A stretch of 62,820 nucleotides of DNA from Chloroflexota bacterium (GCA_003228105.1 QGNN01000004.1:1-62820); one strand, 5' to 3'; counted from the stretch's first letter, positions 25,998 to 28,822 are shown. Numbers and translations: made by a program. Notes: generated by a model from the sequence alone, not told the origin.

Positions 25998-26489
25998 ATG
26001 GTGATACAAACAACTAACCCTTTTGCTCCCGCAAAACCAAGAGTCCCTCTTGTACCGAGAAGATTGCAACCCGTACCTGATCCTGTCGAGATAGCAAAAC
26101 AAAATAAGACTCACTGTCCTAAATGTACCTCCTTGTTGCGTGTAAATTATCAGGATGCAGAATGTCTTAATTGTGGTTTTGTAGACTACGATTACGTTCC
26201 CCCTGAACAAGAGAAAAAAGGGAATACTCTAATAGGCACTGGAACCCGGTACGTGATCCGCTATATGGGTGAGTTTGACGCTCTCGGTGATGTTGTGACC
26301 CATGTTAAAGTTTATCGGGTTAGGAACCGAGTAATGTATGGTGTCAGTTGTCCGTTTTGTGGGTCTGGCATGGCTCAATCTTCACTTTCAGGGAAACGTA
26401 GGGAAGTTAGGGAAGAGAGATACAAATGTAATTCGGGTCACAGAGTGTCTTTATGTCCTAATGGTAAAGGCGACATCGGATGGAAATAG
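25998..26489 (+). CDS. hypothetical double zinc-ribbon protein
   Basis: CPKC-x12-CLNC and CPFC-x22-CxxxH; GAGAGG RBS; terminator-like hairpin downstream. Confidence 0.8.
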   Translation: MVIQTTNPFAPAKPRVPLVPRRLQPVPDPVEIAKQNKTHCPKCTSLLRVNYQDAECLNCGFVDYDYVPPEQEKKGNTLIGTGTRYVIRYMGEFDALGDVVTHVKVYRVRNRVMYGVSCPFCGSGMAQSSLSGKRREVREERYKCNSGHRVSLCPNGKGDIGWK

Positions 26490-26547: not shown

Positions 26548-26599
26548 GTTGATATAGTTGGATAAGATTTTCCAATAATTTAATGCTCCATGTTTGGTT

Positions 26600-27463
26600 A
26601 TGAAATCTGTTTTAGAAGCCATTAATGAAAAAGGGCAAAAACCTTTTTTTATATGTGATTTTTCTCCTCCTAAAGGAGGAAATCCAGATTTACTATTAGA
26701 ATCCTATGACCTTAATCCTGATATGTTTATGGTGGCTTATGCTCCTGGTAAATCAGTCAGGCTGAATCCTATATTTGCCGCGGATTGGATTTACTCAAAA
26801 ACGAAGATTCCATCTATTTTCACCGTCTCCACCCGAGATATGAATAAAAGTGCGATGCAGAGTCTCTTATTAGGAGCTGAATTGATGGGACTACCCAATG
26901 TTTTAATAGTCAAAGGGGATAAACTCACTGCTGAGGATATGTATTTACAAACTGAAGTGAACGACTTCATTCCTACGGAACTGGTATCAGCTGTAAAAAG
27001 AATGAATGAACGCCGCGATTTTCGAGGGAATGAATTAACTTACCCGACGCGATTTTGCATTGGCGCGGCTCTGGATCTTTCGAGAGATTGGGAAAAAGAA
27101 TCTCATTTGACTAAGTTAAAAATAACTAGAGGCTGCAATTTTATTGTTTCACAACCAACTTTCGATCCTGAATTGCCCTCTAAATTCCTTTCTTTTTATG
27201 AAAATACAATTGGAGAGAAATTGAAAATTCCGGTTATCTGGGGTATTCAGATGGTAGAAAAAGATACTATTTCCTTTGCGAATGTTCCGAGATGGGTGCA
27301 CCAAAACCTGGAAGAAGGAGGCTCTTCATATGAAATTACAATCGATTTGGTAAAAAGATACTTAGAGCTTGGTATTGGTACCTTTTATCTTATCCCAACA
27401 ATCTTTAAAGGTGGGAGAAGAGATTATTTGTCAGCACAGGCGGTGATAGAAGATATTGAATAA
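26600..27463 (+). CDS. methylenetetrahydrofolate reductase family protein (divergent)
   Basis: DFSPPK, RDMN..QSLLLGA..G..NVLIVKGD, FIVSQP.FD. Confidence 0.75.
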   Translation: MKSVLEAINEKGQKPFFICDFSPPKGGNPDLLLESYDLNPDMFMVAYAPGKSVRLNPIFAADWIYSKTKIPSIFTVSTRDMNKSAMQSLLLGAELMGLPNVLIVKGDKLTAEDMYLQTEVNDFIPTELVSAVKRMNERRDFRGNELTYPTRFCIGAALDLSRDWEKESHLTKLKITRGCNFIVSQPTFDPELPSKFLSFYENTIGEKLKIPVIWGIQMVEKDTISFANVPRWVHQNLEEGGSSYEITIDLVKRYLELGIGTFYLIPTIFKGGRRDYLSAQAVIEDIE

Positions 27464-27523: not shown

Positions 27524-27552
27524 TTGACCTTCACCCTACCTCATTTTATAAT
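27524..27552 (+). promoter_or_regulatory. sigma70-type promoter for the microprotein pair
   Basis: TTGACC-17 nt-TATAAT. Confidence 0.75.
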
Positions 27553-27590
27553 TCGGCCTTGTTATCTATATTACTAAAGAGGTGAACATT

Positions 27591-27707
27591 TTGGCTAACG
27601 AGACAGGTAAGCGTTATTCTTGTGGAAAATGTGGATCAGAATTTGTTGTCACAAGAGGTGCAGATGGCACTGTTTCTTGTTGTGGCGAGCCGATGTCTCA
27701 AAAGTAG
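27591..27707 (+). CDS. desulforedoxin-like microprotein A (38 aa)
   Basis: Manually translated: MANETGKRYSCGKCGSEFVVTRGADGTVSCCGEPMSQK; CxxC-x15-CC-GEPM; GAGGTG RBS with TTG start. Confidence 0.85.
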   Translation: MANETGKRYSCGKCGSEFVVTRGADGTVSCCGEPMSQK

Positions 27708-27751
27708 TGAATTATCTGCTTATAAATATATAATTTTGAGGGATTTGATAA

Positions 27752-27895
27752 ATGTCTAATCAACTTGGTAGGCGATACCAATGCGACGGGTGTGGAACCA
27801 CTGTTCTATGTACTAAAGCCGGGGAAGGGATTATTCAATGTTGTGATCTAGATTTGGAGCTTCAACAACCTAGAAAACTGCCTTCATCAGACTGA
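27752..27895 (+). CDS. desulforedoxin-like microprotein B (47 aa)
   Basis: Manually translated: MSNQLGRRYQCDGCGTTVLCTKAGEGIIQCCDLDLELQQPRKLPSSD; CxxC-x15-CC; GAGG RBS. Confidence 0.85.
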   Translation: MSNQLGRRYQCDGCGTTVLCTKAGEGIIQCCDLDLELQQPRKLPSSD

Positions 27896-27937
27896 TTATT
27901 AGTTTTACGTCCTAGTAGGCGGATCTTAATTCACCTG

Positions 27938-28822
27938 TTACCCGACAGGAAATTTTTTTGAGTAGGCAGCACTGTGTTGTTCGTCTGCATGGTATGAGCT
28001 TCTAACCAGTGGTCCAGACGCCACATGTTTAAATCCCATTTCCATTCCGATTTTCCCCAATTCTGTAAATTCTTCCGGCGTATACCATTTCGAGATAGGA
28101 GCATGCTTTTGGGAAGGTCTTAGGTATTGCCCGATTGTAAGTAGGTCGCATCTATGTTGGAGCAAGTCCTTCATAGTACTTATAATCTCTGTTTTCGTTT
28201 CTCCAAGGCCTACCATCATTCCTGACTTGGTAACCCCACCTGGCATTAAGTCCTTAACTTTGTCCAACAATCGCAAAGACAGTTCATAGTTGCCTTTGGC
28301 GCGTACTCTGGGGAATATTCTTTTTACGGTTTCTATATTGTGATTGAAGGTTTCTGGATTTGCGTCGGTCACAACTTTTAATGATTTCCAATCACCCTGG
28401 AAATCGGGTGTTAAAACCTCAACCTTACATGTGGGGACTTTTTTCTTTATTTGCTTAATGCATTGAGCAAATATGAATGATCCTCCATCTGGTAAATCAT
28501 CTCGGTTCACTGAGGTAATAACTGCATACTTCAGGCCAAGAATTTTTACAGTGTTGGCTAATCTTTTCGGCTCCTCAAGGTCGAGATTGATCGGGCGTCC
28601 TGTGGTTACAGCACAATATGTACACGCTCTGGTACAAATGTCTCCTAATATCATGAAAGTAGCTGTTTCTTTTTCCCAACATTCCCCTATATTGGGACAC
28701 CTAGCTTCTTCGCAAACCGTATGAAGACCTTGAGTTTTAATTAAATTTTGCAAGTTAGAATAGTTTTGTCCACTAGGCATCTTGACTTTAAGCCACGCGG
28801 GTAACCGTCTTTCGGTACTCAT
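27938..28822 (-). CDS. lipA: lipoyl synthase
   Basis: CEEARCPNIGEC, CTRACTYC, VRSSY. Confidence 0.97.
   Translation of the reverse strand: MSTERRLPAWLKVKMPSGQNYSNLQNLIKTQGLHTVCEEARCPNIGECWEKETATFMILGDICTRACTYCAVTTGRPINLDLEEPKRLANTVKILGLKYAVITSVNRDDLPDGGSFIFAQCIKQIKKKVPTCKVEVLTPDFQGDWKSLKVVTDANPETFNHNIETVKRIFPRVRAKGNYELSLRLLDKVKDLMPGGVTKSGMMVGLGETKTEIISTMKDLLQHRCDLLTIGQYLRPSQKHAPISKWYTPEEFTELGKIGMEMGFKHVASGPLVRSSYHADEQHSAAYSKKFPVG

What the first reader, a model, noticed from the sequence alone, without database searches (positions are those of the whole stretch)
27524..27895. Hidden two-gene operon of paralogous desulforedoxin-like microproteins
Seen: two ORFs below the track cut-off (38 and 47 aa), each with an SD, behind a near-consensus TTGACC-17-TATAAT promoter. 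Both share the register G-[KR]-R-Y-x-C11-x2-C14-G-x14-C30-C31. B has an extra Cys (LCTKAG) and a C-terminal PRKLPSSD tail. Known: desulforedoxin (and the superoxide reductase N-domain) uses CxxC...CC to bind one Fe and forms a homodimer. No SOR catalytic domain or rubrerythrin partner is adjacent; the neighbours are lipA (convergent) and a MetF-like gene. Inference: a heterodimeric Fe/Zn micro-carrier or sensor whose tail docks a partner. From memory, and unverified, similar GKRY..LCTKAG..LPSSD sequences occur as uncharacterised two-domain proteins in other bacteria. This is the best candidate for an undescribed system here.
Basis: partly seen in the sequence, partly recalled or inferred. Interest (0 to 1): 0.78.

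Follow-up and report, generated by a model that had tools for sequence, protein, structure and literature searches.

The report
Paired desulforedoxin-like mini-proteins with tail
Two tiny, overlooked genes of a marine SAR202 bacterium encode the two halves of a widespread, unstudied metal-knuckle mini-protein that travels with one fatty-acid-activating enzyme and one hydrolase, so it is probably a helper of those enzymes and not a free electron carrier.

Summary
ORF A (27591-27707, 38 aa) and ORF B (27752-27895, 47 aa) are real genes under purifying selection, behind a promoter, SD and TTG start that are invariant in 11 of 11 relatives, and they are present in seawater RNA libraries. A passes Pfam Desulfoferrod_N; B falls just below the cut-off. 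Both belong to a large unnamed sub-family (660 50%-identity clusters). Its hallmarks are G-[KR]-R-Y before the first Cys, a [VC]-T-[KR]-x-G hairpin, and in B a fixed 12-residue tail ending in an invariant Asp. A sits directly upstream of B in 79 of 80 Dehalococcoidia loci and 71 of 80 metagenome loci. Fused A-B proteins exist, and several lineages have lost all four cysteines but keep the motifs and the tail. In 401 Chloroflexota genomes, one FadD-like ligase orthogroup (21 genomes) and one YtcJ-like Amidohydro_3 orthogroup (19 genomes) occur only in the 27 genomes that carry B, often as ligase-A-B-amidohydrolase. My best reading is a heterodimeric, largely non-redox accessory partner of that module that docks through the tail. 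No binding test could be run. Other agents of this scan noted the same family on other DNA. My literature searches found nothing in print.

The parts
27524..27552 (+). Sigma-70-type promoter, TTGACC (27524-27529), 17-nt spacer, TATAAT (27547-27552)
   Evidence: Consensus scan gives 11 of 12 matches. Both hexamers are invariant in 11 of 11 aligned relatives amid diverged flanks. Function is inferred; transcript starts are not shown.
27578..27585 (+). Shine-Dalgarno AGAGGTGA of gene A
   Evidence: Sequence. Invariant in 11 of 11 relatives.
27591..27707 (+). Gene A: 38-aa desulforedoxin-fold protein with TTG start (CxxC...CC, GKRY, VTRG)
   Evidence: PF06397 31.9 bits against a cut-off of 23. The TTG start is conserved. 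Synonymous to non-synonymous codon differences are 148 to 32. Alignment A4 of 25 sequences.
27738..27743 (+). Shine-Dalgarno GAGGGA of gene B
   Evidence: Sequence. Similar purine-rich boxes lie upstream of B in relatives.
27752..27895 (+). Gene B: 47-aa desulforedoxin-like paralogue with LCTKAG and a 12-residue tail ending PRKLPSSD
   Evidence: PF06397 18.8 bits, below the cut-off of 23. A profile of B relatives hits desulforedoxin 1cfw in the same register, E 0.0014. 35 close homologues were found, 27 of them exactly 47 aa. The tail and terminal Asp are invariant. Synonymous to non-synonymous codon differences are 238 to 79.
27934..27959 (+). Terminator-like hairpin plus T-run between the convergent B and lipA genes
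   Evidence: Pattern scan only. It overlaps the last codons of lipA. Function is not shown.
26594..27463 (+). Upstream neighbour, MTHFR-like gene (context only, not part of the unit)
   Evidence: PF02219 66 bits. It lies upstream on the same strand in 27 of 80 Dehalococcoidia loci only.
27938..28822 (-). Downstream convergent neighbour lipA (context only)
   Evidence: TIGR00510 400.5 bits. It is the convergent neighbour in 36 of 80 Dehalococcoidia loci.

Best explanation
A and B are co-transcribed genes whose products pair into a heterodimer that copies the desulforedoxin homodimer. Each half is a desulforedoxin-fold knuckle whose Cys4 site mainly holds the fold together. The pair is a member of a large, unnamed family occurring as split pairs, fused A-B proteins and N-extended B forms. 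Its conserved business end is a basic surface (G-K-R-Y and T-K/R-x-G in both halves) plus B's fixed-length tail ending in small-small-Asp-COOH. I propose that the pair is a non-catalytic accessory or adaptor subunit of an acyl-CoA-forming catabolic module. That module consists of a FadD-like ANL ligase, usually preceded by a crotonase, and a YtcJ-like Amidohydro_3 hydrolase; in some lineages a class I or class III CoA-transferase takes the ligase's place. B's tail would dock into one of these enzymes. Shown here: the genes are real, the fold is predicted, the pairing is implied by fusion, the cysteines are dispensable, and the pair co-occurs with and lies next to the ligase and the hydrolase. 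Inferred: physical binding, which enzyme is contacted, and what the contact does.
For: Real genes: see the codon statistics, the invariant promoter, SD and start, and contigs of four seawater metatranscriptome runs from four studies that cover A-B at 99% identity or more. Fold: the AlphaFold2 model of fused relative P0044 has pLDDT 91.2 and pTM 0.79, and one domain superposes on desulforedoxin 1dxg_A with TM 0.97 and rmsd 0.5 A over 36 residues. Pairing: A lies directly upstream of B in 17 of 17 loci, 79 of 80 loci and 71 of 80 loci. In relatives, 31 of the 33 genomes with a match have two matches. The A stop overlaps the B start in L122 and L123. Fused A-B proteins of 80-110 aa are common. 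Not primarily redox: fully Cys-less fused or split forms keep the motifs and tail (P0037-39, P0223/4/6; loci L128-L132). Link to the module, adjacency: the order ligase-A-B-Amidohydro_3 on one strand with 8-16 nt gaps occurs in L119-L124, and a ligase followed by fused A-B occurs in L126. Divergent or convergent versions occur in L142, L146, L167 and L194. Link to the module, co-occurrence: in 401 Chloroflexota genomes, the ligase orthologue (425 bits or more; the next best hit is 342) is found in 21 genomes, all among the 27 that carry B. The Amidohydro_3 orthologue (E<=1e-40) is found in 19, all among the same 27. None of the 374 genomes lacking B has either. In 12 of the 21, including this genome (ligase on contig C31), the ligase is not adjacent to the pair. 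Internal control: paralogous ligases (300-342 bits) sit in 11 genomes, only 2 of which carry B. Within-family contrasts: in f43 only 1 of 17 genomes has B, and that genome alone has both enzymes. In f23 the 3 B-carrying genomes of 5 are the 3 with the hydrolase. In 41 close relatives the table for pair and ligase is 30 with both, 3 with pair only, 1 with ligase only and 7 with neither. Other architectures also place A-B next to a carboxylate-to-CoA enzyme: CoA_trans A/B-A-B-NMO, A-B-CoA_transf_3(-Amidohydro_3), and A-B-thiolase x2. Overall, 33 of 89 loci have a CoA-activating enzyme within 4 kb.
Against: In this window the pair stands alone behind its own promoter, and about half of the metagenome loci show only a housekeeping-type context (UPF0047 upstream in 16, convergent folE in 27 of 89). 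Six B-carrying genomes lack the ligase orthologue, eight lack the operon-type hydrolase, and one (G292) lacks both. The own genome has only a distant Amidohydro_3 (26-33% identity). Related genomes are not independent, so the co-occurrence counts overstate the case. These organisms are rich in acyl-CoA genes, which raises the base rate of adjacency. Most family members do keep the four cysteines, so a redox or metal role in those lineages is not excluded.
Confidence: 0.5

Rival explanations
1. The pair is a classical small electron carrier. A and B each bind Fe in a distorted Fe(Cys)4 centre like desulforedoxin or rubredoxin, and they shuttle electrons to an oxidoreductase of the pathway. The tandem rubredoxins AlkF/AlkG beside the acyl-CoA synthetase AlkK are a comparable arrangement (recalled, not checked here).
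For: A passes PF06397. The CxxC...CC register is identical to solved desulforedoxin and the fold match is near-perfect. An FMN-dependent NMO-family gene follows B in 7 loci directly and lies within 4 kb in 10 of 89. One relative (P0146) has a B-type domain fused to an SOR-like C-terminus.
Against: Cys-less members keep all the other family hallmarks. The second Cys of the CC pair in B is often His, Asp or Asn. No oxidoreductase is a consistent neighbour. The enzymes that track the pair, a ligase and an amidohydrolase, are not redox enzymes. No SOR domain was found in the own genome. The invariant tail has no role in this model.
Confidence: 0.15
2. B is a protein-borne carboxylate carrier or substrate. 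Its flexible small-small-Asp C-terminus enters the active site of the ANL ligase (or of a CoA-transferase) and is adenylated, CoA-thioesterified or amide-linked to a metabolite. The Amidohydro_3 later cleaves the adduct. This would be analogous to LysW with LysX and LysK, or to ubiquitin-like C-terminal activation.
For: The terminal Asp is invariant, it is preceded by S/A/G-S/A/G, and the tail has a fixed length of 12 residues. All three enzyme classes found directly beside A-B convert a carboxylate into a CoA thioester. Both a ligase and an amide hydrolase co-occur strictly with B. The ligase keeps all ANL core motifs.
Against: No ANL enzyme is known to me to activate a protein C-terminus (recalled). 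A crotonase usually precedes the ligase, which fits ordinary acyl-CoA chemistry. The ligase scores as an ordinary FadD/PRK06187 member. There is no chemical evidence of any adduct.
Confidence: 0.12
3. The pair is a metallochaperone or metal sensor that loads or monitors the binuclear metal site of the Amidohydro_3 hydrolase.
For: B lies directly upstream of the hydrolase with 8-13 nt gaps in L122 and L123. All 5 genomes whose B is fully Cys-less lack the operon-type hydrolase.
Against: Cys4 knuckles bind metal too tightly for delivery (general knowledge). The link to the ligase persists without the hydrolase and without cysteines. G235 has a degenerate site yet gives a partial hydrolase hit.
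Confidence: 0.06
4. The pair is a small nucleic-acid-binding regulator of the catabolic module, or has some other function unrelated to the module.
For: The basic GKRY and TK motifs are conserved in both halves. The pair has its own strong promoter here. GreA or rpsT are neighbours in some loci.
Against: Both proteins are near neutral overall (from the sequences; A has pI 7.65). The pair sits in the middle of enzyme operons with very short gaps. There is no DNA-binding family match.
Confidence: 0.07

Closest known systems
Desulforedoxin (Dx) of Desulfovibrio gigas (PDB 1dxg, 1cfw; Pfam PF06397)
   Same: The proteins share a size of about 36-38 aa, the CxxC...CC register and the predicted fold (rmsd 0.5 A over 36 residues for a relative). 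Both work as a two-subunit assembly.
   Different: Here two diverged paralogues form a heterodimer, or are fused, in place of a homodimer. The family adds GKRY and T-K/R-x-G motifs and a 12-residue tail on B that Dx lacks (alignment). The cysteines are dispensable in some lineages. The carriers are aerobic marine and soil heterotrophs, not sulfate reducers. The family is linked to a ligase and a hydrolase, not to redox enzymes.
N-terminal centre-I domain of 2Fe superoxide reductase (desulfoferrodoxin; PDB 1dfx, 1vzg)
   Same: B matches TIGR00320 beyond the knuckle into the linker (residues 8-41). One relative (P0146) joins a B-type domain to an SOR-like continuation.
   Different: B has no catalytic domain, and none was found in the own genome (PF01880). 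B ends after a 12-residue tail.
LysW / amino-group carrier proteins (Thermus, Sulfolobus); name and mechanism recalled, papers seen only as a search listing
   Same: Both are tiny zinc-ribbon proteins with a conserved acidic C-terminal tail. Both are encoded with a ligase and an amide-cleaving hydrolase.
   Different: The fold family differs (PF21344 not matched above its cut-off). The terminal residue is Asp, not Glu. The neighbouring ligase belongs to the ANL family, not ATP-grasp. No adduct has been shown.
Small obligate enzyme partners: MbtH-like proteins of adenylation domains, AtzG of AtzE, DUF35/ChsH2 zinc-ribbon partners of thiolase-like enzymes (all recalled)
   Same: These are very small, often unannotated proteins encoded inside enzyme operons and needed as non-catalytic subunits. 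MbtH-like proteins bind ANL-type adenylating enzymes.
   Different: There is no sequence or fold relation. Locus L135 has its own DUF35 gene beside A-B, so A-B does not replace it. Binding of A-B to any enzyme is untested.
Amide-to-acid-to-CoA catabolic logic, e.g. piperine pathway PipM (amidohydrolase) plus PipU (acyl-CoA synthetase) and beta-oxidation-like enzymes (PMC12753220; passages read)
   Same: Both combine a metal amidohydrolase, a FadD-like ligase and crotonase-type enzymes in one cluster.
   Different: The passages I read mention no small desulforedoxin-like genes. The supplementary gene table was not seen. The substrate of the module described here is unknown.

Membership tests
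Desulforedoxin / Pfam PF06397 Desulfoferrod_N | Score above the curated Pfam gathering threshold (23 bits) | tested here: met
   A scores 31.9 bits. B scores 18.8 bits, below the cut-off, so B is a member only by profile and register (E 0.0014 to 1cfw).
Desulforedoxin / Pfam PF06397 Desulfoferrod_N | Four Cys ligands in the register C-x2-C ... C-C | tested here: met
   Present in the window's A and B. Across the wider sub-family this is not universal: position 31 of B is C, H, D or N, and some lineages have no Cys at all.
Desulforedoxin / Pfam PF06397 Desulfoferrod_N | Desulforedoxin fold | tested here: met
   Tested on relatives, not on the window proteins themselves. The fused P0044 model gives TM 0.97 and rmsd 0.5 A to 1dxg_A. 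The N-extended B model gives Z 4.2 and rmsd 0.6 A over 36 residues to 1cfw_A. Foldseek E-values are not significant because the domain is so small.
Desulforedoxin / Pfam PF06397 Desulfoferrod_N | Homodimer of identical subunits | tested here: inconclusive
   Strict A-B tandem order and fused A-B forms argue for a heterodimer. No complex prediction or experiment could be run.
Desulforedoxin / Pfam PF06397 Desulfoferrod_N | Binds one Fe per subunit and is redox active | not testable with these tools
   This needs metal analysis, UV-vis and EPR.
2Fe superoxide reductase (desulfoferrodoxin) | C-terminal catalytic domain PF01880 with the His4Cys iron site | tested here: not met
   B ends 12 residues after the knuckle. 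PF01880 was not found in the own genome at E<=0.1, completeness 88.7%.
LysW-type amino-group carrier protein | LysW zinc-ribbon domain (PF21344) and a C-terminal Glu tail with an adjacent ATP-grasp ligase | tested here: not met
   PF21344 gives only a sub-threshold hit in one fused relative (16.1 bits against a cut-off of 27). The terminal residue is Asp. The neighbouring ligase is AMP-binding/ANL.
DUF35 / ChsH2 zinc-ribbon partners of thiolase-like enzymes | PF12172 zinc ribbon plus PF01796 OB fold | tested here: not met
   A and B match neither family. A separate DUF35 gene lies beside the pair in L135.

The most novel reading that the evidence does not exclude
B is a new kind of protein-borne carboxylate carrier. 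Its invariant small-small-Asp C-terminus would be threaded into an ANL ligase (or a CoA-transferase) and activated as an adenylate, CoA thioester or amide. Pathway enzymes would then work on the tethered group, and the YtcJ-like amidohydrolase would release it. That would be an ANL-driven counterpart of LysW or of ubiquitin-like C-terminal chemistry, spread over several bacterial phyla.
Probability: 0.12. Interest if true: 0.9.

Novelty: new variant of a known kind. Interest (0 to 1): 0.68.

Why it matters
The pair is missed by gene callers and length cut-offs. Where it is called, it is labelled 'desulfoferrodoxin', 'hypothetical' or something wrong (S27E, RpoP, streptomycin kinase). Yet it is near-universal in SAR202 and other Dehalococcoidia, which are abundant in the ocean, and it occurs in records labelled Acidobacteria. 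ESM Atlas look-alike clusters, which are unaligned leads only, are labelled Actinomycetota, Planctomycetota and others. If it is an obligate partner of one FadD-like ligase and one orphan YtcJ-like amidohydrolase, it defines a conserved catabolic module of unknown substrate in organisms credited with degrading recalcitrant marine organic matter. It would also explain why such enzymes may misbehave when expressed alone. The repeated loss of all cysteines with retention of the tail is a clean natural experiment showing that a 'redox' fold has been recruited for another job. The carrier reading, if true, would be new enzymology.

Tried and rejected
1. Complex prediction never ran.

A narrower alignment, A6, worked.

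4. UPF0047, the commonest upstream neighbour in metagenome loci, is rejected as a partner. It is present in 37 of 41 relatives, including six of the genomes that lack the pair, and in 10 of 14 control genomes.

5. An SOR partner is rejected.

6. A functional link to the local MetF-like gene or to lipA is rejected. These are neighbours in 27 and 36 of 80 loci only, and not beyond the family.

7. The N-terminal extension of the N-extended B forms has no Pfam match. It also has no convincing fold match: the best non-Dx hit has Z 3.4.

8. The metatranscriptome contigs cannot give transcript ends. Three contigs begin at 27407-27431, upstream of the predicted -35 box, but a neighbouring contig abuts there, so I draw no conclusion.

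9. The Foldseek pdb search gave no hit at E<=0.001. I rely on TM-score and rmsd for the 36-residue domain.

10. A precomputed label PF26435 on P0205 could not be reproduced or identified with the local Pfam copy.

11. The naive Fisher tests are not quoted as probabilities, because related genomes are not independent.

Full report
**What is in the window.** The stretch 27524-27959 holds a compact two-gene unit on the + strand.
- A TTGACC-17-TATAAT promoter lies at 27524-27552, 11 of 12 matches.
- The SD AGAGGTGA (27578-27585) precedes ORF A, which starts at TTG 27591 and ends at stop 27707 (38 aa).
- The SD GAGGGA (27738-27743) precedes ORF B, 27752-27895 (47 aa).
- A terminator-like hairpin with a T-run lies at 27934-27959 and overlaps the end of the convergent lipA (lipA by TIGR00510, 400.5 bits).
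- The upstream gene is MTHFR-like (PF02219, 66 bits).
- Both small proteins carry G-[KR]-R-Y-x-C-x2-C-G-x14-C-C. B adds LCTKAG and the end PRKLPSSD.

**Are they genes?** Yes.
- Against 14 relatives, codon differences are 148 synonymous to 32 non-synonymous in A and 238 to 79 in B.
- Of the base differences, 168 of 218 (A) and 266 of 370 (B) fall at third positions. The pattern collapses in the two shifted frames. These comparisons share the window as reference and are not independent.
- In an alignment of 11 relatives the -35 box, the -10 box, the SD and the TTG start are invariant while the surrounding spacer has diverged.
- Contigs from four seawater metatranscriptome runs (four studies) cover A-B at 99% identity or more. 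RNA libraries can contain DNA, and contigs do not show transcript ends, so this is consistent with transcription but does not prove it.

**What family?**
- A passes Pfam Desulfoferrod_N (31.9 bits against a cut-off of 23). B falls short (18.8 bits).
- A profile of B relatives aligns in register with solved desulforedoxin (1cfw, E 0.0014).
- An AlphaFold2 model of a fused relative (P0044; pLDDT 91.2, pTM 0.79) superposes one domain on 1dxg_A with TM 0.97 and rmsd 0.5 A over 36 residues. Foldseek E-values are not significant for so small a domain.
- No SOR catalytic domain was found in the genome.
- The organism is a marine SAR202/Dehalococcoidia MAG, judged from the record titles of its closest relatives.

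**A distinct sub-family, always paired.**
- B has 35 close homologues, 27 of them exactly 47 aa.
- A profile search finds 660 cluster representatives at E<=0.001 and 141 at E<=1e-10.
- A profile of fused forms finds 1488 clusters at 90% identity.
- Invariant or nearly invariant positions are G6, R8, C11, C14, L19, C30, M35, P44, S45 and the terminal D47. The tail has a fixed length.
- A shares GKRY and V-T-[KR]-G-G. Classical desulforedoxin has neither motif (alignment).
- A lies directly upstream of B in 17 of 17 loci, in 79 of 80 Dehalococcoidia loci with gaps of 12-149 nt, and in 71 of 80 metagenome loci. Of the other 9 metagenome loci, 4 show only B and 5 only A, two of those at a contig end.
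- In L122 and L123 the A stop overlaps the B start.
- Forms with an unrelated N-terminal domain in place of A also exist.

The tandem order and the fusions together make a desulforedoxin-like heterodimer the natural reading.

**The cysteines are dispensable.**
- Several lineages have replaced all four ligands while keeping GKRY, the TK hairpin and the tail. These include G420 in the window's own order and G412, G332, G388 and G268 in its class.
- In many B proteins the second Cys of the CC pair is His, Asp or Asn.
- G235 has lost only the CxxC.

The conserved function therefore cannot be electron transfer or metal handling. The metal most likely staples the fold, as in the Cys-plus and Cys-minus forms of some ribosomal proteins (recalled).

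**Context.**
- The local neighbours are lineage synteny: lipA is the convergent neighbour in 36 of 80 loci and the MTHFR-like gene lies upstream in 27 of 80.
- In other Chloroflexota classes the pair sits inside [crotonase]-AMP-binding ligase-A-B-Amidohydro_3-[SDR] with 8-16 nt gaps (L119-L124). In L126 a fused A-B follows the ligase.
- Other architectures are crotonase-CoA_trans A/B-A-B-NMO, A-B-CoA_transf_3(-Amidohydro_3), and A-B-thiolase x2-DUF35.
- Over 89 loci, 33 have a carboxylate-to-CoA enzyme within 4 kb. By type: AMP-binding 14, class I CoA-transferase 14, class III 16, Amidohydro_3 14.
- A housekeeping-type context is also common: convergent folE in 27 loci and UPF0047 upstream in 16.
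- UPF0047 shows no phyletic link to the pair.

**Phyletic test.** In an even sample of 401 Chloroflexota genomes, 27 carry B with its tail.
- The ligase orthogroup (query L122; 425 bits or more; the next best hit is 342) is present in 21 genomes, all of which carry B.
- The operon-type Amidohydro_3 (E<=1e-40) is present in 19 genomes, all of which carry B.
- None of the 374 genomes without B has either enzyme.
- Five of the six B-carrying genomes that lack the ligase have the hydrolase. Only G292 has neither.
- In 12 of the 21 ligase-carrying genomes the ligase is on another contig or more than 15 kb away. This genome is one of them: its ligase is at C31:16525-18078, 45% identical, and passes PRK06187 with 523.7 bits against a cut-off of 476.
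- As an internal control, paralogous ligases (300-342 bits) occur in 11 genomes, only two of which carry B.
- Within-family contrasts agree. In f43, 1 of 17 genomes has B, and it alone has both enzymes. In f23, the three B-carrying genomes of five are the three with the hydrolase. In f19, the pattern is 1 of 2 for both B and the ligase.
- Among 41 close relatives, the table for pair and ligase is 30 with both, 3 with pair only, 1 with ligase only and 7 with neither. The three genomes with the pair but no ligase are 56-86% complete. The one with the ligase but no pair is an 82%-complete assembly in 280 contigs.
- For the hydrolase, with a looser query, the table is 29, 4, 3 and 5.

Related genomes are not independent, so these counts overstate the significance. 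Even so, the pattern spans 19 families.

**Mechanism.** My best reading (0.5) is that A and B form a desulforedoxin-fold heterodimer that serves as a non-catalytic partner of the ligase/hydrolase module, or of CoA-transferases in lineages without the ligase. B's tail would be the docking element and the basic GKRY/TK surface a second contact. The ligase itself looks canonical: all ANL core motifs are conserved, and its nearest solved relatives are FadD5, feruloyl-CoA synthetase and FadD13. The hydrolase is nearest to two uncharacterised YtcJ-like structures (3icj, 3igh). The substrate is unknown. An amide-to-acid-to-CoA logic such as the piperine pathway (PMC12753220; passages read) is a plausible template.

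The rivals are:
- a rubredoxin-like electron carrier (0.15)
- a protein-borne carboxylate carrier whose terminal Asp is activated (0.12; the boldest reading not excluded)
- a metallochaperone for the hydrolase (0.06)
- a regulator or some other function (0.07)

One tentative observation favours some metal-hydrolase connection. All five genomes whose B is fully Cys-less lack the operon-type hydrolase. The sample is small, and G235 partly breaks the pattern.

**What is known.**
- My searches for desulforedoxin with Chloroflexi (0 papers) and 'desulforedoxin-like' (2 papers, both on Clostridioides difficile) found no description of this family.
- Searches for desulforedoxin with SAR202/Dehalococcoidia terms (no listed paper holds 'desulforedoxin') and with acyl-CoA synthetase/amidohydrolase (none listed holds it) also found none.
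- Subscription journals and supplements were not searched.
- Pfam and NCBIfam have no model for the tail-bearing family or for the Cys-less forms.

**Earlier notes of this scan.** After my own analysis I looked these up. At least seven follow-ups on other genomes describe the same paired family beside acyl-CoA ligases. They are unchecked AI notes, not independent evidence. They agree with my reading, except that one called the Amidohydro_3 adjacency accidental, which my counts contradict.

**Verdict.** The finding is a real, conserved, expressed-looking mini-operon and a member of a widespread, unpublished variant of the desulforedoxin fold. Its most likely role is as a tail-docking helper of an acyl-CoA ligase/amidohydrolase module. 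Binding and chemistry remain untested.

Noticed in passing
window 25998-26489 (+): A 163-aa protein with several CxxC zinc-ribbon-like motifs (only weak Pfam and NCBIfam hits, such as DZR_2 and TFS-like) is conserved just upstream of the MTHFR-like gene in 10 of 17 loci compared. Its function is unknown.
   Followed up: partly
window 26594-27463 (+): The 'MetF-like' gene matches PF02219 at only 66 bits and falls far below the NCBIfam equivalog cut-offs, so it may be a non-canonical MTHFR-like enzyme. It is syntenic with the pair only within the SAR202 family.
   Followed up: partly
proteins P0072, P0087, P0090, P0100, P0113, P0140, P0142, P0150, P0157, P0178, P0181 (alignment A7): In about 104-118-aa forms the A half is replaced by an unrelated helix-hairpin-helix N-terminal domain (conserved P-x-G-F-R-W...IGG...Y.RD.LI.EIE.G). 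It is confidently modelled (pLDDT 88.7) but has no Pfam match and no convincing PDB fold match.
   Followed up: partly
protein P0146: A B-type knuckle (GKRY, LCNK) continues into an SOR-like segment (EKHLPVIE...). This suggests that one clade of B is closely related to the N-domain of a 2Fe superoxide reductase.
   Followed up: no
loci L128-L132 and L127 (G412, G420, G332, G388, G268, G235): All five genomes whose B is fully Cys-less carry the ligase orthologue but lack the operon-type Amidohydro_3. G235, with a half-degenerate site, gives only a partial hydrolase hit. This may hint that the metal site matters for the hydrolase link.
   Followed up: partly
L134 and L135 (genome G118): One genome carries two A-B pairs in different operons. 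One follows the CoA-transferase A/B subunits. The other precedes two thiolase-domain genes, a DUF35 gene and MmgE/PrpD.
   Followed up: partly
L219 (own genome, contig C31 10500-24000): The own ligase orthologue lies divergent to greA and is followed by an enolase-superfamily (MR_MLE, galactonate-dehydratase-like) gene. GreA is also the upstream neighbour of A-B in four metagenome loci, which may be a remnant of an ancestral greA-ligase-A-B arrangement.
   Followed up: no
protein P0205: The precomputed Pfam labels of one Acidobacteria fused form include PF26435.2. The local Pfam copy did not report it and I could not identify it.
   Followed up: partly
name column: Members of the family carry wrong automatic names in public sources (ribosomal protein S27E, RpoP, streptomycin 6-kinase, Trm1).
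   Followed up: no
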